Below, piece by piece: positions 7,622 through 58,237 of a stretch of 64,000 nucleotides of DNA. Every line of letters begins with the position of its first letter. Position 1 is the first letter of the stretch. The position numbers and the translations under genes were made by a program. The notes beneath the pieces were generated by a model. That model worked only from the letters and a program-made list of their open reading frames with translations. It did not search any database and was not told the origin of the DNA. The stretch comes from Naegleria gruberi (taxonomy: Eukaryota): the NCBI GenBank assembly GCA_000004985.1, contig GG738900.1; one strand, written 5' to 3'.

Positions 7622-7740
7622 GGCTACGGCCATATCACGATTCATGCACCTCATCCCGTCCGATTTGAGAAGTTAAGTATCGTCGAGCCACATCAGTACT
7701 GAGGTTGGAGACAACTTGGGAACCTGTGGTGCTGTAGTCT
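7622..7740 (+). rRNA. 5S ribosomal RNA gene
   Basis: GGCTACGGCCATATCACGATTCATGCACCTCATCCCGTCCGATTTGAGAAGTTAAGTATCGTCGAGCCACATCAGTACTGAGGTTGGAGACAACTTGGGAACCTGTGGTGCTGTAGTCT matches the eukaryotic 5S consensus. Conserved blocks include CGGCCATA, CATCCCGTCCGAT, AAGTTAAG and GGTTGGAGACAAC…GGGAAC…GTGCTGTAG. Helix I pairs 5' GGCUACGGC with 3' GCUGUAGUC. The gene is about 119 nt and is followed immediately by a T5 Pol III terminator. Confidence 0.9.
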
Positions 7741-8000: not shown

Positions 8001-8074
8001 GCAGCGATAGATCAGTTGGTTAGATCGTAAGCCTAACACGCTTAAGGTCGCGGGTTCAAGCCCCGCTCGCTGTA
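8001..8074 (+). tRNA. tRNA-Val (anticodon AAC)
   Basis: GCAGCGA TA GATC AGTTGGTTA GATC G TAAGC CTAACAC GCTTA AGGTC GCGGG TTCAAGC CCCGC TCGCTGT A folds as a cloverleaf. It has a 7-bp acceptor stem (G1·U72 wobble), a 4-bp D stem, a 5-bp anticodon stem, the loop C-U33-AAC-A37-C and a GTTCAAGCC T-loop. It is followed by TTTT at 8077..8080. There is no intron and no encoded CCA. Confidence 0.85.
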
Positions 8075-26559: not shown

Positions 26560-27915
26560 TTGTGCAACCGATCAAGATCGGGTCGTGAATTTGAAGGTTG
26601 TACAGTGAATCGTATCTTTGCAAGCTTTTCTCATACATTTTCCAGTACAAATCCAAAGTTTCAAGACAATTATACTCCTCTCGATCATAGTAAATATGAA
26701 TTATACGAGTGGAAAATGTCGACCAATCAGCCACAAATTGTCATTAAGGAAGTTAGTACTGGAAAGGACTATATGACATTATTAACCATGGATGGTCGAT
26801 TGTTGTTTATGGGACAAAATACATTTGCATTGGGTTCTGTATTGAGTGGAGAAAAGCTTCCTGATTATGTAACATGTCTGGAGGAGGCTTGTGTAAAGGT
26901 AGTCAGTGGGAGAGGTGATAATGGTGTAGGAGAAACCTTTTTAGAATTGGGTAAGAAGGAGACGAGGAATTTTCTTCATGTTGGAAGTGGAATGTACTTT
27001 ATGGTAGTTCTTACGTCAGATTATAGATTGATTTCTTCTGGATCTAATGAGTGTGGACAGACAGGTGTTGGTCAAAATGCTAGTAGCATGGGAGGTTTTT
27101 CTGAATGTGTTTTCAATAAGGATTTACAAGATTCAAAGAATGAAATATTGAGAGGAATTGTTAAAATTGCATGTGGATACCAACATTGTATGATATTGAC
27201 TAGAGATGGAACAATGATTGGAACTGGGTGTTCCTACCAACGTCAATTAGGTCCAATTGAAAATGATATATCCTATGAATTTACAAAATTAGTATCTCCT
27301 GAAACGACTACTCCAATAGTAGATATTCAATGTGGATACTTTAGTAGTTCATGTATTGACGCTAATGGAATGGTATATGTAGTTGGACAAGAGAGTTACA
27401 CTCGACTCGTCGCTGCAGAGAAATGGACCAAATTACAAACTTTTATTTATGATCCAGTTCAATACATGACAATGAGTTGTTCCAATTCATTCTTTCGAAC
27501 AACAAGTGGATTAGTCTATCACAATTGGGGAAGTAATGATGACAATGAAAACAAACCATTTGAGAATTTGCAAAAATTAAGTGAGATACCTAATGTGGAA
27601 TATATATTTGGAAAGGAAAATTTCTTAGCTGTAACGGAATCTAAGGATATCTATCTCTCCACAAACTCTTCTTGTTCTGGAATTATTAAACCACCAACAT
27701 CTGATACTCGTTGGTTTGAATACAATGGCCTCAAACAACACATTCCTAAAAATGGAAGATATCAACTATTCATCGCCGATGCATTCAGCTTTTACATGTA
27801 CTTTATTCTATCCTCCAATAAGGAAGGTCACTTGAAGGATAATCTGAAAATTACACTCCAAAAAGGACAAACAGATTTTGAAAAGAATTATTTCATGGAC
27901 ATTATCATCAAGTAG
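26560..27915 (+). CDS. RCC1-like repeat protein (paralog of 60234..61655), 5' end unresolved
   Basis: ORF 26560..27915 starts at TTG and has no in-frame ATG before MSTNQ at 26716. The repeats …DGRLLFMGQNTFALG…CGYQHCMILTRDGTMIGTGCSYQRQLG…IQCGYFSSSCIDANGMVYVVGQ… carry RCC1-type GxN..GQLG motifs. It is collinear with, and about 40-45% identical to, the 60.2-kb gene. A TATAG acceptor at 26535..26539 suggests an upstream exon. Confidence 0.6.
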   Translation: MCNRSRSGREFEGCTVNRIFASFSHTFSSTNPKFQDNYTPLDHSKYELYEWKMSTNQPQIVIKEVSTGKDYMTLLTMDGRLLFMGQNTFALGSVLSGEKLPDYVTCLEEACVKVVSGRGDNGVGETFLELGKKETRNFLHVGSGMYFMVVLTSDYRLISSGSNECGQTGVGQNASSMGGFSECVFNKDLQDSKNEILRGIVKIACGYQHCMILTRDGTMIGTGCSYQRQLGPIENDISYEFTKLVSPETTTPIVDIQCGYFSSSCIDANGMVYVVGQESYTRLVAAEKWTKLQTFIYDPVQYMTMSCSNSFFRTTSGLVYHNWGSNDDNENKPFENLQKLSEIPNVEYIFGKENFLAVTESKDIYLSTNSSCSGIIKPPTSDTRWFEYNGLKQHIPKNGRYQLFIADAFSFYMYFILSSNKEGHLKDNLKITLQKGQTDFEKNYFMDIIIK

Positions 27916-28120
27916 TAATCATACGAATTATTATACTTGTAAATATTAAACTTGTTAAAGATCATCCTTCACCATATATGATTACTACTACTTCAAAACC
28001 AAGTACAGACCTCATGACCATATACCATCACATTTACAAATAAATTCAGTGAAAATCCTGCAACTGTAACTCTTTAAAAAAAAACGGCGCACTATTTTTT
28101 GTGAATATTTTAAAAAAAAA

Positions 28121-28869
28121 ATGAAAAATTCCTTTACTGCCTCCGTCGTGATGACCATTTTCATGGTTGTTGTGTTGATGAGTTTATTGGCGCTTGATGT
28201 TGTTGAAGGTATTATGGAATCTCGTGTTCGTTTAATTGACTCCAACTCACAATTAAATCGTTTCCTCTTCCGTGGTAATACTCCAATTGAACATGGAAAT
28301 TTTGCGATTGGAAAGTTGAGAGATTTAGTCAGAGAGGTTGGAAAGAATAATAATGTTCAAGTGCCTGATGAATTCTATTTGATTGATGTATCATTCTTGA
28401 ATATGTTTGAAGAAGATTTGAAGGATGAAACAGAATATTTCAAAGCTAATCCACATATTGGTGAATTGGTTCATTGGACTATTATTGGTAATCCAATCAA
28501 TGGTACTGATTTACCTGAATGGTTGAGAAAGGATCTTGCTATTTATGAAAAGAAATGGGATAGAGAAGATAAATTGATCGATAGAGTCGATCAGCTCTAT
28601 AACTGGATTCACACTCAAGATAGCATTCATAATTTGAATCAAGATGCTCAATCTGCCAAAGCTTTGGTTTTCTACATCCATTGTGAGGCTGGAATGGATA
28701 GGTATGTAGAGTTTCATATTATTTAAAGTTGTTAACAAGTGGAATAGAACTGGTGAAGTTTCAGGTTCATATTATTTAAAGTATAACAAGTGGACATATA
28801 TGCAGACTTTGGAATATGATTATCATGTCGAAAATAGACCAATTGAGTTCATGTCACAAAATGCATTGA
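28121..28869 (+). CDS. Protein-tyrosine-phosphatase-like protein (CX5R P-loop HCEAGMDR), 3' exon structure uncertain
   Basis: ORF 28121..28726 has a hydrophobic N-terminus and the PTP signature IHCEAGMDR. This is followed at once by a GTATGT donor at 28702 (phase 2), so AG+T gives Ser, then Gly, i.e. HCxAGxxRSG. A 53-bp tandem duplication (28715..28767 and 28768..28794 onward) supplies two candidate acceptors (AACAAG|TGGA). The first would give a 38-nt intron, which is too short. The second gives an 89-nt intron and the C-terminus SGHICRLWNMIIMSKIDQLSSCHKMH* ending at 28869. The gene may be disrupted by the duplication. Confidence 0.45.
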
Positions 28870-28989
28870 ACTGGTTCTGTTGGCATCAATTTTACACTCT
28901 TGGTTATCCAACTGATTGTAACTTGTCACCAAGCAGAAACAAATGAATTTAATTTTTTGTGTCAATTTTGTTTATTAATATGAGGAGGA

Positions 28990-29610
28990 TTATTCAAGAC
29001 TTTGAATCAGATCATAATGTTGTTTCTTTTCATCGTAGGATAACCAAACTTCCTTATTCACATTTTTCACATGTTCTGGATTGACTTCAATCACTTCAGA
29101 TTGAATAATCTTCCCAGAGACAATCAAAATTCTAAAGGCAACATTCGGATACACTCTACTAGCTGCCACAACACTTGTAAAATCACCAAAAGTTCCACTC
29201 TTACTCAAACTATTCAAATATTCATCAAAACTTTGTCCTTCCTCAACAAATAGAGCATGTTTCAACTCTAATCCATCAATTTTAGTTTCCAAATTATTTC
29301 GCATCCAACCAACAATTTCCTCTCTCAATTTTTGATGATTCTTTCCATTATTAATTCCTTTCGAAAGACTATCATAGAGACAATTGCCATCCGATACGGA
29401 GGGAATAATTTTGAAATGATCAGTTAGTAATTTTCCTCGGAGTGATGATGATGATGAAATATTGTTATCAGCAAAAGAAAATCTTGATGCAGAGAAATTA
29501 CGCAAATAATTAATTTTTCTATTATTACTTGAAAAATTGGTGAATTGTTTTCTGCTTATAGATTTAATCATTTTTTTTTGATTTTTAAAAATTGTAATGG
29601 AATTGAGCAT
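28990..29610 (-). CDS. OTU-domain deubiquitinase-like protein
   Basis: ORF 28990..29610 with ATG at 29610. It carries the OTU catalytic Cys motif PSVSDGNCLYDSLS and a C-terminal His region (…EKKQHYDLIQ). The N-terminal 60 aa are basic and low-complexity. Confidence 0.65.
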   Translation of the reverse strand: MLNSITIFKNQKKMIKSISRKQFTNFSSNNRKINYLRNFSASRFSFADNNISSSSSLRGKLLTDHFKIIPSVSDGNCLYDSLSKGINNGKNHQKLREEIVGWMRNNLETKIDGLELKHALFVEEGQSFDEYLNSLSKSGTFGDFTSVVAASRVYPNVAFRILIVSGKIIQSEVIEVNPEHVKNVNKEVWLSYDEKKQHYDLIQSLE

Positions 29611-29650
29611 ATTTGGTAATTGTTAATAAATTGTTAATAATAAATTCATT

Positions 29651-31150
29651 TTACTGTATTCCAGCAAGTTGTTTCAATGTAGCATCATTGATTCCCTCCT
29701 TTCGAATATCTTCTCTGCATTTCATATCGGTGGCTGATAAGTTCCATAAGGATTTGGCTGCGAATGAGCTCACTTGCTTATCCTTTCCATTGGCAAATCG
29801 AATTAGTTGTGGAACAATTGCATGAGAGAGGAGAATCTTTTGATTTTCTGCATTCTTGGTCATGTTAAATAAGGCAGCATTATACGATTCCAAATTTGGT
29901 TGTGGAATTGGACATGGAGATTTGGAAAACCATTCAGCAATGAGTTTTACAAAACCACTCTCTCTAAATGCCTCAATATTTTCTCTCATATTGGTCAATT
30001 TGACCAACAAACTTGTGGCCATATTGAAACAAGATGGTTTTTGAGAGGCAATGCTAATTTCATCTCTCAAAAAATTGGTCAAAATAATTAAACCTCCCTT
30101 AGATTGTGAAAATTCGAGGCACATTTCTGGACTAGCATAGCATAGGGAAACTACTGAGGAGAGGACATGTTCGAGAGCTGTCTTGTTTTTTGAAGAGAAC
30201 TTTTTGAAGGCCGACACCAAATTGGACATGATGAATGTGTGTTCGTGGAGTTGAGCGGAAATTTCTGGATTTTGGACAATGTTTCCAACTGCTCCTGCAG
30301 CACTTTGAGCAATTGAATCAACTGCATGAGTGAGGAAATTGCTTACCACTTTCAATGCCCTAACAAGTTGAATTTCAGAACATTGTCCCTTCTTTTCACA
30401 TACAAATGAGAGTGACATTAGACAGTTAGCAAGTCATTCATTATTTTCACTGTTTGGATTCTCTAAAACGGAAACCATCTTTTCCACAAATCCTTCCTTT
30501 ACCAATAATTTCTGAATGGAACCACTCTCATCATCACTGACAATTAAATTGTAAACACAAAAGACAGTTTTCGATCTGATTTGTTCCAATTGTGTTAAAT
30601 CTATTTGTTTCACTAAAATCCTGAGAAGTGATTGATCATTGGCTGAGTTTTGTAATTTCTGAGCCATGTATTTTCCAGTGGTTGCACTTGTAGAGCTAGT
30701 TGTGGTGGAATTTGAACTTGCTTTTACAATTTTTGTAATAAATGTTGGTTCCAAACTCAGGAATGAAATCAGTGATAACACATTTCGTTTCATTTCTTCT
30801 GTAAATTTGGCATCTTTCAATATTTCTGAAAAAACTTTGATTGAATTTTCCTGATTGACCATTTCTTTTCGTATTGAGGCATCATTATCCTCACATAAAT
30901 TAACCAATGCACCAATTCCATACTCTATAATCGCCAACTCACTTGAATGATTCTCCAAAACCTTGAAAATCATTGAAATTCCACTCTTAATTTCATTTCT
31001 ACATTTATCCAACGTTGCCAAATTCAGTAAAATTCCCAAAACATTCTTTACAATTCTCTTATCATTCTGTTGATCATTTAATAATGAAATTATTATCGGA
31101 ATCCCTCCCAATCTATGAATTTCAAACAAATTGGCATCTTCACTTGTCAT
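29651..31150 (-). CDS. Armadillo/HEAT-like repeat protein interrupted by one in-frame TGA (30434..30436)
   Basis: Minus ORFs 30434..31213 and 29651..30418 are in the same frame, separated only by TGA followed by 4 sense codons. Both halves are ARM-like helical repeats (…LVNLCEDNDASIRKEMV…; …AGAVGNIVQNPEISAQL…LWNLSATDMKCREDI…). The listed upstream start is TTG, and the first in-frame ATG is at 31150 (MTSEDANLF…). No intron removing the TGA is phase-compatible. Confidence 0.5.
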
Positions 31151-31498
31151 GTTAAAAACATCTCCAATGGCGGACAATTTAACTAACGAATTTCCTGTTT
31201 TGATCTTGTTCAATAATTGACCTAAATCTTGTGGTTGGGAAGGAGTAGCTTGTGCTGTGAAAAGTTGGTGTTGTGATCTAATAAAACCGCACAGAAAAAG
31301 TACCTACTCATGTTTGACATTTTTTTTTAATATTTATTTTGAATAGTGACATGACAACCATTACAAATCATCACATTATTGACTTCCTTTTAGAGACATT
31401 ATGCAGTAGTATTTACAGTTTTTCACCTTCACAATTCTTCATCATTTTCAACTTCCTTACAAAATTTTAAATATTGAATTTAATCTTTACAAAAAAAA

Positions 31499-32686
31499 AT
31501 GTCTCAACATCAAGATGATGAATTTACAGAACAAGATACCGTTCCGGATTGCTCTTTAGAATCCCTCTCCATTGTCTTTAATTATGATCAATTAATAAAA
31601 GATCGGAGTAAGATGCACAAAATAACCAGAAAATCAAACTCTAAATTTAATAATAATAATAATCGTGATGATCATGATGATCGTGATGATAACAATTCGA
31701 GTAATGGAGAGAATCATTCTGATGAAACGTACTATGTTGGTGCTTCCAATAATTTTGTTCGTGTTTTTACGTTGAATGGAAGAAAATACTGGATAGCCCA
31801 AGCCTTGTGTTATCATAGAGCACCCGATATGAAGATTCACTTCTCTGTAAAGAGGAAGGATGTCCCGAAGGCTTTTAATGTGATTGGAAAGTACTTTTTC
31901 GAGAGTGGTATGAAATTTGGAATGAAATCTATAATGATTGATGAAGAGACTGAGGTGAAGAGCAAGAATTCTGGAAAGTTGGATTTGAATTGGAATACGG
32001 AGGGTGGAAGAGAAGGTAATGATCGATCATTTACATTGGAATGGCCTGATTCAATGAGAGGTAGAGAGATTACAGTGTATATTTACAGATATTTTCACAT
32101 GGATCAAATGAAATCGGTTTGCGAGTATGATTGTAATGATCATGAATGGATGAAGGAATATTCAATTTTTGACAAGGGAGGAAAGTATGATTGTGATCAA
32201 TTTACAGAACTCGATTCGAAACCCTTCCAACAATTTGAATTGGTGCCAGAGATGGAAGAACCTTTGAGAATGTTTAGGAAATGGATTAGACACGTTGAAT
32301 ACTTGTTGGAGAAGGAGAATATTGAACCAAATGGATGCGCAGATGGTGATTTACCACTCGGTGGAAAGTATGCTTCATTCAGAAATGAAACATTCATTCC
32401 AATAATGAATGCACACGTAGAAGAGCCAATTTTGCATAATTCTACACAACAGAAGGAAGCTGTAACATCTAATAACGATTCGAAAAGTGTTAATGACATG
32501 TTCTTTTATCCTCCCAATTTCACAGGATGGAATGCAGCCAACAATCCACAAGCCATTACAATGTATAACAATCTCCATCTAACAAGAAATGCATCTTGGG
32601 ATCATTTCCTGGATCATCTTCCATTAATTTCCATTGTACTAGCACCAATAATTATTGGTCTATTATTCGCCAACCAGACTCCATAA
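31499..32686 (+). CDS. Hypothetical tail-anchored membrane protein
   Basis: ORF 31499..32686, 395 aa. It is acidic and Asn-rich at the N-terminus and has a single C-terminal TM (LPLISIVLAPIIIGLLFANQ). No family recognised. Confidence 0.4.
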   Translation: MSQHQDDEFTEQDTVPDCSLESLSIVFNYDQLIKDRSKMHKITRKSNSKFNNNNNRDDHDDRDDNNSSNGENHSDETYYVGASNNFVRVFTLNGRKYWIAQALCYHRAPDMKIHFSVKRKDVPKAFNVIGKYFFESGMKFGMKSIMIDEETEVKSKNSGKLDLNWNTEGGREGNDRSFTLEWPDSMRGREITVYIYRYFHMDQMKSVCEYDCNDHEWMKEYSIFDKGGKYDCDQFTELDSKPFQQFELVPEMEEPLRMFRKWIRHVEYLLEKENIEPNGCADGDLPLGGKYASFRNETFIPIMNAHVEEPILHNSTQQKEAVTSNNDSKSVNDMFFYPPNFTGWNAANNPQAITMYNNLHLTRNASWDHFLDHLPLISIVLAPIIIGLLFANQTP

Positions 32687-55437: not shown

Positions 55438-56063
55438 CTTTGTAAGGTGTTTTTTTTTGATGTGTTGTGATGCGGAACTTTCCTCTCAACAGACAATTCA
55501 ACGTCCTTTTTGAGAATTGAATATTGACTTTTCGAGCATTAAGGAAAATTATGAAGTTGTAAGGGACCAAAATTCTAAGATCTCTCAACCTCAAGGATCG
55601 ATAAGAATACAAGTATGGACAATTTATGTTTTAATAGAAGTTTATTCGGCAGAATTTTTTTGAGATAGGCTTACATAAATATCGTTGGGTCTTCTTAATC
55701 GAGTGCTGTTCCTCTTTTTGATCATCAGTGTTCATTGCAATAGAATTAAAAGATTTTTTCAATGAATAACTCTGAGGAGGAGAAGGAGGAGCTTAATAAT
55801 TAATGATGTGAAATTAAGGTTTGCAGGTTGCACCATGAGTTCACCTACAAGTGTAAGAAACTACAAAATGTTCCAACCACAACAATCTAACAATCTGTTA
55901 TTAGAAACTCACAGTAAATTTGAAATTGTCAGTTATGGATATTTTAGTCACAATATTTCAAAACAAGCCATCTTAATCTTAGGATTTTATTAGATTACGA
56001 TATTTCAGAAACGTCACGTCAAATGTCTTATCACGTTTTCTCATTGATCAACACAAGAAAAAA

Positions 56064-58237
56064 GTGACCATGCACACATTCGTTTCCTTCTTGGTTTTGT
56101 TTCTGTTGCTTGTTATTCATCAACATGTGCAAGCCAGTTATTTAGATCTAGTTGTTTCGTCTCCTTTACTTTCGAATATTAAATCAAATGACGAAATTGT
56201 TGGTGTGAAAACATTTCTCACACTCTTTGCCATCAAGAATGAAAAGAGCAAACTGGCGAATTATCTGACAGAACTTTCTAATAATTCTTCTTTCACATCT
56301 AATTTTGCTCATGATTCGAATAGAAAATTATTAATGGAATGGCTCAAGACAAATTACATTTCAATTGGTGTAATGTCAAACCAAGTAAATTATTTAACTT
56401 CCACATTTTCACAATTCAACGTTTCCATCTATGAAGGTACAACAGTTTCGAATAATTCTCCACTGACATCTAATCATATATTTTAAAATATTTCCATCTT
56501 TCGATTCATGTCAGAAGCGAAATTACTTGGAGAAATACGATGCTGTCTTGTTAGATCCGTATGCATTTGCGTTCTTTGTGAGGTTTTACAGAGATTCGTC
56601 TAGTTTAGGTTCTTCAATGATGCAAAGTAAGAATTTTGAACCAATTCCATTGATTCCATACGAAGTGTACACTAGGAGAATGATGGAAGCAAATCCATCA
56701 GAACCAATGCAGGAATTGTTTGGTTATCAAAAATTATTGACATGTGAAAATCAACCAGATGTGTCAGATGCTCAATATTTTAGATTGCTGACAGGATACT
56801 CTAATTATTCATCCCTATATGTTGCAATTATTGAAAGAATTACTGGAAAATCATCATTATTAGCTAATTACACACTCATCAATTCGAATATTCCAGCAAT
56901 ACTTTCGTACTTTGGATAATCCGAAACTAATGGATTTTCTTCATCTTCTCTGGAAACTGTTTTACTCTCATCATCATGCTACATGTGCAAAACTTCCACA
57001 TGCGCAGGAGAAAACTTTGATCCAACCTTAGATTTTTGGATAATCCCTCAATTCGTCATTATTTTCGGCTACTTTATACTATTGTTCTCTTTTGGATTAT
57101 TCAAAAAACCATCCATGAGAAGAAGAATTGCCCTTCCCTACTGCCCAATTCTCATTCTAACCATCATGGTCATGTTCACATCTCTCTCAAGAATTTGTGT
57201 TTGCATATTTTACAATATTTCAACTTTTGTAATGATTTGGTGGGTCTTTATTTATTCAGCCACAGTGATTAGATTCTATTTCTTGAGAAATTTATATTCC
57301 CTGATTACTAGATTCCCTACTCGTGAGAAATTGATGAAAATTCTGGCATCTGAAAAGAGTGGTTTCGTTCTGACAGTTGTCTTGACATTTTTATTGGCAT
57401 TGACATTCAATTCGGCTGGAATTTACTTCTTTTTTTTAGAGAATAAGTCCACTATTGATATTTACAGAGCTGCATGGATTGTTGGTTTTATTATTTTGGG
57501 TGGATTGTTAGGTTTTCGTTGCAGTTTTGTGGGATATGATAATCCATGGAAAAACTATTCGAAAGTTTGGACTGAAACGATTCTTCTTTTTCGATGATCC
57601 ATTGTATGTTAGAGTAGACATGTTACTTTTACTCTTTCCCATTGTTATTTGCATTCTAGTTGCTGTTGGAACTGCCTCGCTCGACGTTCAACAAAAAGAA
57701 TATCAAAATGTTGGTGGAATTTTCAACACAATTTTGTGTTTCGTATTTTTGACAATGAATGGAGGAGGTGTAGTGCTGATTGAAATATACAAAAGAATTA
57801 GGTATGCAAAATCTCAAAAGACCAATTCAGCAGATGATTTGGAAAATATTTTGAAAAACGAAGATTTGTTCAATTTATTTAGAGAATATTCTGAAAAGGA
57901 GTTTAGTTTGGAGAATATTGAATTCTATTCAGTCATGTTGAAATTGAAAGTGCAGAAAGTGGTGAGTGAGAAAGAGTTGGATGAAATTGATGATACTTTC
58001 ATTAAGAATTATTCGAAATATGAAGTGAACTTACCTTCAAGTTGTAAACGAGAATTTTACAAACTCAAAGAACAAGCACAAGAGAAAACACACCAAGTTG
58101 AATACTCTGCCTTGTGGCAAGTTTTTGGAAATGATTTGGTGTTGAACATGATGGATACCTTCAGAAGATTGCAAGAAACTTCAAACTATAGTCAATGGGA
58201 ATCCGTTTCTAAATATCAGAAACACATTCATCCTTAA
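56064..58237 (+). CDS. Receptor-like protein: signal peptide + ectodomain + 7 TM helices + C-terminal RGS domain (7TM-RGS), reading frame broken into 4 ORFs
   Basis: ORF 56064..56486 has a signal peptide MTMHTFVSFLVLFLLLVIHQHVQA. ORF 56527..56919 continues the ectodomain. ORF 56983..57597 has 5 TM helices. ORF 57527..58237 has 2 more TM helices and an RGS domain (…EDLFNLFREYSEKEFSLENIEFYSVMLKLK…). A 130-nt intron (GTAAAT at 56385 to CAG at 56514) joins pieces 1 and 2 in frame. Pieces 2 and 3 share a frame but are separated by a single TAA (56917..56919). Pieces 3 and 4 differ by +1 frame between TM5 and TM6. No canonical AT-rich intron explains either break. Confidence 0.55.

What the first reader, a model, noticed from the sequence alone, without database searches (positions are those of the whole stretch)
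30400..30450. Armadillo-repeat gene split by a single in-frame TGA only 12 nt upstream of an in-frame ATG
Minus-strand ORFs 30434..31213 and 29651..30418 are in the same frame. Both encode ARM/HEAT-like repeats and are separated by one TGA. The apparent spacer between them is 15 nt, far too short for two independent eukaryotic genes. The only GT..AG combinations spanning the TGA are 59 or 62 nt, which are not multiples of 3, so an intron does not rescue the frame. The options are programmed readthrough, selenocysteine, a very recent nonsense mutation, a strain polymorphism, or a base-call error. Selenocysteine is unlikely because the 3' UTR is only about 40 bp before the OTU gene, leaving no room for a SECIS element.
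Basis: seen in the sequence. Interest (0 to 1): 0.5.

Follow-up and report, generated by a model that had tools for sequence, protein, structure and literature searches.

The report
Premature stop in one Naegleria gene copy
One armadillo-repeat gene of the amoeba Naegleria gruberi is cut in two by a single TGA where a near-identical second copy in the same strain has a cysteine codon, so this is an ordinary nonsense variant (or a base-call error) that annotators recorded as two genes.

Summary
On the minus strand a single TGA (30436..30434) separates two same-frame Arm-repeat ORFs, with 15 nt (LANCL) before the next ATG.

The window is Naegleria gruberi NEG-M. The halves are annotated as two genes, NAEGRDRAFT_72865 and NAEGRDRAFT_72864.

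A second N. gruberi protein, NAEGRDRAFT_76406, lies on a 15-kb scaffold. It is 334/338 identical to the read-through product and has Cys (TGY) exactly where the window has TGA.

Six more distant relatives run continuously across the site. They carry T, T, D, L or V there.

The TGA lies inside an Arm repeat. The "start" ATG is a conserved internal hydrophobic residue.

TGA is a normal stop in this genome. No SECIS element or downstream RNA structure was found.

Best reading: a recent TGY>A nonsense change in one of two near-identical copies. I could not establish whether that copy is an allele or a very recent duplicate. The main rival is a base-call error. Programmed readthrough and selenocysteine are unlikely. 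Interest is low.

The parts
30434..30436 (-). In-frame TGA (premature stop). The aligned codon is Cys (TGT or TGC) in the second N. gruberi copy NAEGRDRAFT_76406. It is T, T, D, L or V in more distant relatives.
29651..31303 (-). The whole reconstructed Arm-repeat gene: an open frame with one internal TGA, ending at TAA 29653..29651. The 5' end is unresolved.
   Evidence: Translation. End-to-end alignment with P0003, P0004, P0005, P0017 and P0065.
30434..31150 (-). Annotated gene NAEGRDRAFT_72865 (P0001, 238 aa, XP_002672164.1), which is the N-terminal half ending at the TGA. The model starts at an internal Met and omits conserved upstream coding sequence.
   Evidence: N-terminal conservation shown.
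29651..30229 (-). Annotated gene NAEGRDRAFT_72864 (P0002, 192 aa, XP_002672163.1), which is the C-terminal part. The model starts at internal Met 30229, not at the ATG at 30418.
30419..30433 (-). The 15-nt 'spacer', CTT GCT AAC TGT CTA, encoding LANCL. It is coding sequence and forms the start of the conserved LsNC.m.LS helix found in all relatives.
30416..30418 (-). In-frame ATG. It is an ordinary internal Met, aligned to M/I/V in relatives, and not an evolved start codon.
31278..31320 (-). 5'-end anomaly. The only upstream ATGs (31320, 31311) are out of frame with the conserved N-terminal coding sequence. The frames can be reconciled by removing 26 nt (31303..31278) or by adding 1 nt, for example to the T5 run at 31299..31295.

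Best explanation
Window 29651..31303 (minus strand) is a single armadillo-repeat gene of Naegleria gruberi NEG-M. In the copy on this 312-kb scaffold, a Cys codon (TGT or TGC) has changed to TGA by one third-position transversion.

**Shown**
- The gene family is continuous across this site.
- The TGA falls inside an Arm repeat.
- A 99%-identical second copy in the same strain's assembly has Cys at this position.
- TGA is a normal stop codon in this genome.
- The two annotated genes are the two halves of one ORF.

**Inferred**
- The TGA is a real, recent, copy-specific nonsense variant. Most likely it is one haplotype of a heterozygous region, or otherwise one of two very recent duplicates.
- Translation of this copy ends at the TGA. 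That gives an N-terminal fragment of roughly 240-290 aa, or the mRNA is degraded.
- The downstream 260 codons are translated only by rare near-cognate readthrough, because the UGA CUU G context is moderately leaky.
- Full-length protein is supplied by the intact copy.
- The lesion is young: the downstream half has no further stops or frameshifts and only one amino-acid difference from the intact copy.
For: - **Second copy.** P0151 (NAEGRDRAFT_76406, on a 15,192-bp scaffold) is 334/338 identical to the read-through product. It reads ...NSENNE-C-LANCLMSLSF....
- **Continuous relatives.** N. lovaniensis P0003 aligns in one HSP over residues 18-526, with T opposite the TGA. P0004, P0005, P0017 and P0065 align without a gap, with T, D, L and V there. 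P0004 is one uninterrupted ORF at the DNA level.
- **Position inside a repeat.** A junction-spanning 86-aa segment matches ARMC9_ARM and ARM_ARMC5 profiles in single stretches across the site.
- **Standard genetic code.** TGA ends 11 of 40 long open segments, and there is none in a 2,853-codon ORF.
- **Both halves still look coding.** There are 0 in-frame stops, against 15-26 in the other frames.
- **Annotation.** The halves are annotated as two genes in N. gruberi NEG-M.
- **Heterozygosity.** N. gruberi shows mosaic heterozygosity, and Naegleria is described as a heterozygous diploid (PMC6201504 and PMC9928731, citing Fritz-Laylin 2010).
- **Real variant or error.** The two copies differ at 3 other codons in 1,014 nt. 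That exceeds the roughly 1e-4 per base I assume, from my own knowledge, for consensus error in an approximately 8x Sanger assembly. So any given difference is more likely real than an error.
Against: - No reads were available, so a base-call or consensus error at 30434 cannot be excluded.
- I could not obtain the DNA of the 15-kb scaffold. Synonymous divergence, the exact codon (TGT or TGC) and colinearity are therefore unknown.
- None of the three flanking genes tested has an annotated twin (72866, RCC1 52488 and OTU). The N-terminal half has no twin either. So allelic status is not demonstrated, and the second copy could be a partial duplicate or a fragmentary haplotig.
- Nonsense changes are rarer among real variants than among random errors, which raises the error hypothesis somewhat.
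- There are no expression data.
Confidence: 0.7

Rival explanations
1. Base-call or consensus error in the reference scaffold. The real genome has TGT or TGC (Cys) here in every copy, and the gene is intact.
For: - The difference from the intact copy is a single base.
- The rest of the ORF is undamaged: 0 in-frame stops in 260 downstream codons.
- Random errors create stops more often than surviving polymorphisms do.
- A possible second frame problem at the 5' end of the same gene could indicate a locally low-quality consensus.
Against: - The two copies also differ at three other codons. They are therefore distinct sequences, and their divergence is well above typical consensus error rates.
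- NEG-M is known to be heterozygous in a mosaic pattern (PMC6201504).
- I have no direct evidence of low quality at this site.
Confidence: 0.18
2. Programmed stop-codon readthrough. The UGA is maintained, and near-cognate tRNA decoding yields both a short N-terminal isoform and a full-length protein.
For: - The context GAA UGA CUU G matches 3 of the 4 downstream positions of the high-readthrough motif UGA CUA G (PMC12233894).
- The downstream frame is intact.
- The site is variable in the family (T/D/L/V/C), so whichever residue is inserted would probably be tolerated.
Against: - The stop is not conserved. The near-identical copy has Cys, and all six other relatives have sense codons.
- The CUU G bases simply encode Leu-Ala, as in the intact copy.
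- There is no RNA structure 3' of the stop (z = -0.23).
- The stop lies inside a structural repeat, not at a domain boundary.
Confidence: 0.04
3. Two independent genes. The split is functional, and the downstream half is expressed on its own from the ATG at 30418 or the ATG at 30229, as the public annotation implies.
For: - Both ORFs are intact and are annotated as separate genes.
- Intergenic distances in this genome can be very short, for example 40 nt to the OTU gene.
Against: - The 15 nt between them are conserved coding sequence, LANCL.
- The break is inside an Arm repeat.
- The ATG is a conserved internal hydrophobic position.
- No relative is split.
- The sister copy is continuous.
- There is no room for a terminator and a promoter.
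Confidence: 0.04
4. Selenocysteine. The UGA is decoded as Sec, and the Cys-containing copy is its Cys homologue.
For: - A TGA/Cys pair between near-identical sequences is the classic signature of a selenoprotein.
- N. gruberi has SPS2 and the Sec machinery (PMC4561486, citing da Silva 2013).
Against: - No SECIS match at E<=10 in 27500..32000, and none at gathering score in the whole window.
- My own scan gave only a weak 109-nt candidate inside the OTU coding sequence.
- Cys is not conserved at this position: relatives have T, T, D, L and V.
- The site is in an Arm helix with no redox motif.
- A Sec/Cys dimorphism within one strain would be unprecedented, to my knowledge.
Confidence: 0.01
5. 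An unrecognised intron removes the TGA, or UGA is a sense codon in this organism.
For: In-frame GT..AG pairs spanning the TGA do exist: 78-153 nt and longer. One donor, GTCAGT at 30541, scores 6.0, near the low end of real donors.
Against: - 12 clear introns in the window use GTAAGT, GTATGT or GTGAGT. The other candidate donors score -17 to +0.5, against leave-one-out scores of 6.2-13.7 for real donors.
- Any such intron would delete 26-51 codons that align residue for residue with relatives and are part of the annotated protein P0151.
- TGA terminates 11 of 40 long open segments and is absent from a 2,853-codon ORF, so it is not a sense codon.
Confidence: 0.01

Closest known systems
Heterozygous or copy-specific premature termination codon (nonsense allele, incipient pseudogene) in a heterozygous diploid or polyploid protist
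   Same: - A single-base change from a sense codon (TGY to TGA).
- An otherwise intact ORF.
- An intact near-identical second copy in the same genome.
- Relatives that are continuous across the site.
- A stop inside a structural repeat.
   Different: - Allelic status is not demonstrated. Flanking genes have no annotated twin, and read-level support was not available.
Split gene models caused by an in-frame stop (annotation artefact)
   Same: - NAEGRDRAFT_72865 and NAEGRDRAFT_72864 are the two halves of one ORF.
- Each model starts at an arbitrary internal Met.
   Different: - The cause is in the deposited sequence itself, not a gene-caller error on an intact ORF.
Eukaryotic selenoprotein genes (Sec/Cys homologue pairs with a 3'UTR SECIS)
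   Same: - An in-frame UGA is aligned to Cys in a close homologue.
- The organism has the Sec machinery.
   Different: - No SECIS was found.
- Cys is not conserved in the family.
- There is no redox motif.
- The protein is an Arm-repeat scaffold, not an oxidoreductase.
Functional translational readthrough at UGA CUA G (for example MDH1 and LDHB in mammals; peroxisomal isoforms in fungi)
   Same: - UGA is followed by C U . G.
- An open, functional frame lies downstream.
   Different: - The +6 base differs (U, not A).
- The stop is not conserved in the sister copy or in relatives.
- The 'extension' is half of a repeat domain, not a short targeting signal.

Membership tests
Armadillo-repeat protein (Pfam PF00514 Arm) | Arm repeat matches above the curated cut-off in the protein | tested here: met
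   Upstream half 31.5 bits and downstream half 24.9 bits, against a 20.6 cut-off. The family relatives are also Arm proteins (Pfam list; names).
Nonsense (premature-stop) variant of an intact gene | The stop codon is one base change from a sense codon present in a near-identical copy | tested here: met
   P0151 has Cys (TGY) where the window has TGA. The two are 334/338 identical.
Nonsense (premature-stop) variant of an intact gene | Homologues are continuous across the site, and the stop lies within a domain, not between domains | tested here: met
   Searches show ungapped alignment. One search shows single Arm-type profile stretches across the junction.
Nonsense (premature-stop) variant of an intact gene | The variant is supported by sequencing reads, and its allelic or paralogous status is known | not testable with these tools
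   No reads are available. N. gruberi scaffolds are not indexed in the look-up of encoding contigs. Flanking genes have no annotated twin.
Eukaryotic selenoprotein gene | SECIS element in the 3'UTR | tested here: not met
   Rfam gave no match at E<=10 over 27500..32000 or at gathering score over the whole window. My own scan gave only a weak, over-long candidate inside the OTU coding sequence.
Eukaryotic selenoprotein gene | UGA aligned to a conserved (catalytic) Cys across homologues | tested here: not met
   Cys occurs only in the 99%-identical copy. Other relatives have T, T, D, L and V.
Eukaryotic selenoprotein gene | The organism encodes the Sec machinery | not tested
   Literature only: SPS2 fusion genes are reported in N. 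gruberi (PMC4561486, citing da Silva et al. 2013). No Sec-tRNA gene lies in this window.
Programmed stop-codon readthrough | The stop codon is conserved at the site among orthologues or alleles | tested here: not met
   There is a sense codon in the sister copy and in all six relatives.
Programmed stop-codon readthrough | High-readthrough context (UGA CUA G) and/or a stimulatory 3' RNA structure | tested here: inconclusive
   The context UGA CUU G matches 3 of 4 motif positions (PMC12233894). There is no significant structure (z = -0.23).
Spliceosomal intron spanning the stop | Donor matching the genome's consensus, and the segment absent from homologous proteins | tested here: not met
   Real donors are GTAAGT, GTATGT or GTGAGT, with leave-one-out scores of 6.2-13.7. 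Candidates score -17 to 6.0. The segment aligns to all relatives and is included in P0151.
Variant nuclear genetic code with UGA as a sense codon | In-frame UGA frequent in conserved genes, and UGA not used as a terminator | tested here: not met
   TGA ends 11 of 40 long open segments. There is none in a 2,853-codon DOCK-family ORF. This is the only TGA-split ORF pair in the window.

The most novel reading that the evidence does not exclude
The TGA copy is maintained and is not decaying. Leaky decoding of GAA-UGA-CUU-G by near-cognate Cys, Trp or Arg tRNAs would give a fixed low ratio of full-length to N-terminal-only Arm protein. The Cys-encoding copy would supply constitutive full-length protein. 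That would be a two-copy (or two-allele) dosage and isoform system in a heterolobosean. An even less likely variant is a Sec/Cys dimorphism that uses a non-canonical SECIS.
Probability: 0.03. Interest if true: 0.5.

Novelty: new member of a known kind. Interest (0 to 1): 0.12.

Why it matters
- **Annotation fix.** NAEGRDRAFT_72865 and NAEGRDRAFT_72864 should be merged into one interrupted gene and linked to NAEGRDRAFT_76406.
- **Wider relevance.** It is a small example of copy-specific loss-of-function variation in the long-cultured axenic strain NEG-M. It also shows how in-frame stops inflate gene counts in heterozygous protist assemblies.
- **Limits.** It does not bear on recoding biology unless the unlikely readthrough reading proves true.

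Tried and rejected
**Searches that failed or gave nothing**
- Word-index homology search with the full fused product returned nothing. The Ser/Thr low-complexity tract probably saturated the candidate list. The exhaustive HMMER search and a search with P0151 worked.
- Exact-protein look-ups to fetch N. gruberi DNA failed, including the 15-kb scaffold. The genome is not indexed there.
- The N. gruberi genome paper (PMID 20211133) is not held. Heterozygosity is therefore cited second-hand.

**Tests for a twin of the locus**
- I looked for twins of three flanking genes to test for a syntenic haplotig. None is annotated, so allele versus duplicate stays open.

**Readings tested and rejected**
- An intron. 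Many in-frame GT..AG pairs exist, but the donors do not fit the consensus and the segment is conserved coding sequence.
- A UGA-sense genetic code.
- Selenocysteine (and the non-conserved Cys).
- A readthrough-stimulating RNA structure.

**Not used as evidence**
- The single-sequence AlphaFold model of P0151 had mean pLDDT 53. It is too poor to use beyond 'all-helical', so I ran no fold search.

**Control that did not work out**
- The other same-frame split, the TAA at 56917, was examined as a control. It is not explained by a splice donor and remains unresolved.

Full report
**1. The observation**

On the minus strand the sequence reads ...GAA AAT AAT GAA TGA CTT GCT AAC TGT CTA ATG TCA.... 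The TGA occupies window 30436..30434. The next in-frame ATG is at 30418..30416, and the 15 nt between them encode LANCL.

The ORFs 30434..31213 and 29651..30418 are in one frame. Both contain Arm repeats above Pfam's cut-off.

This is the only place in the 64-kb window where two long open segments in the same frame are separated by a TGA. The 260 codons after the TGA have no in-frame stop, against 15 and 16 in the other two frames. The chance expectation for that is about 1e-7.

Two details in the finding are inaccurate:
- The title says 12 nt; the gap is 15 nt.
Many in-frame pairs exist, of 78, 81, 84, 87, 96, 99, 102, 111, 114, 150 and 153 nt and longer.

**2. What genome this is, and its rules**

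The window is gene-dense and about 33% GC. It encodes typical eukaryotic proteins: DOCK, OSBP, Ras, serpin, ABCG, histidine kinase, F-box/LRR and RCC1.

Exact matches identify it as Naegleria gruberi NEG-M, on a 312,004-bp scaffold.

TGA terminates 11 of 40 long open segments and never interrupts a 2,853-codon ORF. The standard genetic code therefore applies.

Twelve unambiguous introns in the window are 45-111 nt long. Their donors are GTAAGT (9), GTATGT (2) and GTGAGT (1).

**3. One gene, not two**

The public annotation has two genes here:
- NAEGRDRAFT_72865 (P0001, 238 aa) ends at the TGA.
- NAEGRDRAFT_72864 (P0002, 192 aa) starts at an internal Met at 30229.

An exhaustive HMMER search with the read-through product found full-length relatives that align without a gap across the TGA:

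| Relative | Source | Residue opposite the TGA |
|---|---|---|
| P0003 | N. lovaniensis; one BLASTP HSP over residues 18-526 | T |
| P0004 | environmental contig; one uninterrupted ORF at L001:404-1810 | T |
| P0005 | N. gruberi paralogue NAEGRDRAFT_81203 | D |
| P0017 | Acrasis kona | L |
| P0065 | NCBI-sourced protein, organism not given | V |

Further points support a single gene:
- The five "spacer" codons and the following residues (LANCLMSLSF) form the most conserved local motif, LsNC.m.LS.
- The "start" Met aligns with M/I/V in relatives, so it is an ordinary internal residue.
- A junction-spanning 86-aa segment matches Arm-type Pfam profiles in single stretches across the site.
- The TGA therefore cuts an Arm repeat in the middle. 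There is no room or signal for a gene boundary.

**4. The decisive comparison**

The 90%-identity cluster of P0002 contains a second N. gruberi protein. This is P0151, NAEGRDRAFT_76406 (EFC35931.1), 338 aa, on a separate 15,192-bp scaffold.

P0151 is 334/338 identical to the read-through product. It reads ...ENPNSENNE-C-LANCLMSLSF....

The same strain's assembly therefore holds an intact version with Cys (TGT or TGC) where the window has TGA. That is a single third-position transversion. The other three differences are S/G, V/I and A/T. Because every relative is continuous across the site, the sense codon is ancestral and the TGA is derived.

**5. Alternatives tested**

*Intron.*
- Candidate donors upstream of the TGA score -17 to +0.5 on a matrix built from the 12 real donors. 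Real donors score 6.2-13.7 in leave-one-out tests.
- One exception, GTCAGT at 30541, scores 6.0.
- Any of these introns would delete 26-51 codons that align residue for residue with relatives and are part of P0151. An intron is rejected.

*Selenocysteine.* This deserved a real test, because Cys/TGA is the Sec signature and N. gruberi has the machinery (PMC4561486).
- There is no SECIS match at E<=10 in 27500..32000 or at gathering threshold in the window.
- My own pattern scan gave only a weak, over-long candidate inside the OTU coding sequence, with about 0.5 expected by chance.
- Cys is not conserved at this position (T, T, D, L, V).
- There is no redox motif.

*Programmed readthrough.*
- The stop is not conserved in the sister copy or in any relative.
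- No structure follows it (z = -0.23).
- The context UGA CUU G resembles the high-readthrough motif UGA CUA G (PMC12233894) at 3 of 4 positions. Those bases simply encode Leu-Ala, as in the intact copy.
- Some low-level near-cognate readthrough is plausible, but it would be incidental.

**6. What remains open**

I could not reach reads or the DNA of the 15-kb scaffold. Two questions stay open.

*(a) Real variant or base-call error?*
- The two copies differ at three other codons in about 1 kb. That divergence is far above typical consensus error, which I assume from my own knowledge to be about 1e-4 per base for an approximately 8x Sanger assembly. Any one difference is therefore more likely real.
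- Stops are enriched among errors relative to surviving polymorphisms.
- I put the error hypothesis at about 0.18.

*(b) Allele or recent duplicate?*
- N. gruberi is reported to show mosaic heterozygosity, and Naegleria is described as a heterozygous diploid (PMC6201504, PMC9928731).
- However, OTU, 72866 and the RCC1 gene have no annotated twins, and neither does the N-terminal half.
- P0151's model begins abruptly at an internal Met. The small scaffold may be fragmentary, or the duplication may be partial.

**7. Likely mechanism and consequence**

*Shown:* one ancestral Arm-repeat gene; a TGY>TGA change in this copy; an intact sister copy.

*Inferred:*
- Ribosomes terminate at the TGA and produce an N-terminal fragment that ends inside a repeat, or the mRNA is degraded.
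- Reinitiation at the ATG 15 nt downstream, after a long ORF, is expected to be inefficient (general knowledge of eukaryotic translation).
- Full-length protein comes from the intact copy.
- The absence of further lesions in the downstream 260 codons indicates that the event is very recent.

**8. Verdict**

This is an ordinary premature stop, or a sequence error, in one copy of a lineage-restricted Arm-repeat gene, mis-annotated as two genes. It is useful as an annotation correction and of low general interest.

Noticed in passing
window 31278..31320 (minus strand): The 5' end of the same Arm gene does not close. Conserved N-terminal coding sequence (DLGQLLNKIKTGNSLVKLSAIG, matching residues 4-25 of N. 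lovaniensis P0003) lies upstream of the annotated Met at 31150. That open segment has no in-frame ATG, and the only upstream ATGs (31320, 31311) are in another frame. The frames reconcile by removing 26 nt (31303..31278; poor GTACTT donor, far shorter than the 45-111-nt introns here) or by adding 1 nt, for example T5 to T6 at 31299..31295. This could be a second lesion, an indel error or a non-AUG start.
   Followed up: partly
window 56917..56919 (+ strand), region 55983..58237: A TAA separates 150 and 225 open codons in the same frame (...SYFG*SETNG...). No splice-donor motif lies at or near it. The downstream part is rich in hydrophobic, transmembrane-like segments and is followed by an ORF with an RGS domain. 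It could be an ordinary gene end with a closely spaced same-frame neighbour, a non-obvious intron, or a second in-frame stop.
   Followed up: partly
window 29651..30229 and 30434..31150 (minus strand): The public gene models NAEGRDRAFT_72864 and NAEGRDRAFT_72865 each start at an arbitrary internal Met. They leave 204 nt of conserved coding sequence (30230..30433) unannotated. They should be merged and cross-referenced to NAEGRDRAFT_76406.
   Followed up: yes
window 7622..7740 and 8001..8074 (+ strand): A 5S rRNA gene (98.6 bits) lies about 260 nt upstream of a tRNA-Val(AAC) gene. These are the only Rfam or ARAGORN hits in the window.
   Followed up: no
window 28702..28747 (+ strand): A 46-nt intron (GTATGT...TTAAC...AATAG) splits the catalytic P-loop of a dual-specificity-phosphatase-like gene. 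Removing it restores HCEAGMDR|TGEV. I used it as the first calibration intron.
   Followed up: yes
P0003 (N. lovaniensis, 2618 aa), P0017 (Acrasis kona, 848 aa), L001:404-1810: This Arm module appears with very different C-terminal contexts. It stands alone (about 440-540 aa) in N. gruberi and in an environmental contig. It carries a long coiled-coil-like tail in Acrasis. It forms the first approximately 480 aa of a 2,618-aa 'HP domain-containing' model in N. lovaniensis, which may be a real fusion or a merged gene model.
   Followed up: no
window 29267..29375 (minus strand, inside the OTU coding sequence): The only canonical ATGA...AA...GA SECIS-like pattern downstream of the TGA. It spans 109 nt, has a G.U-rich helix II and almost no helix I, and was not reported by the Rfam SECIS models. 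I judged it a chance match.
   Followed up: yes
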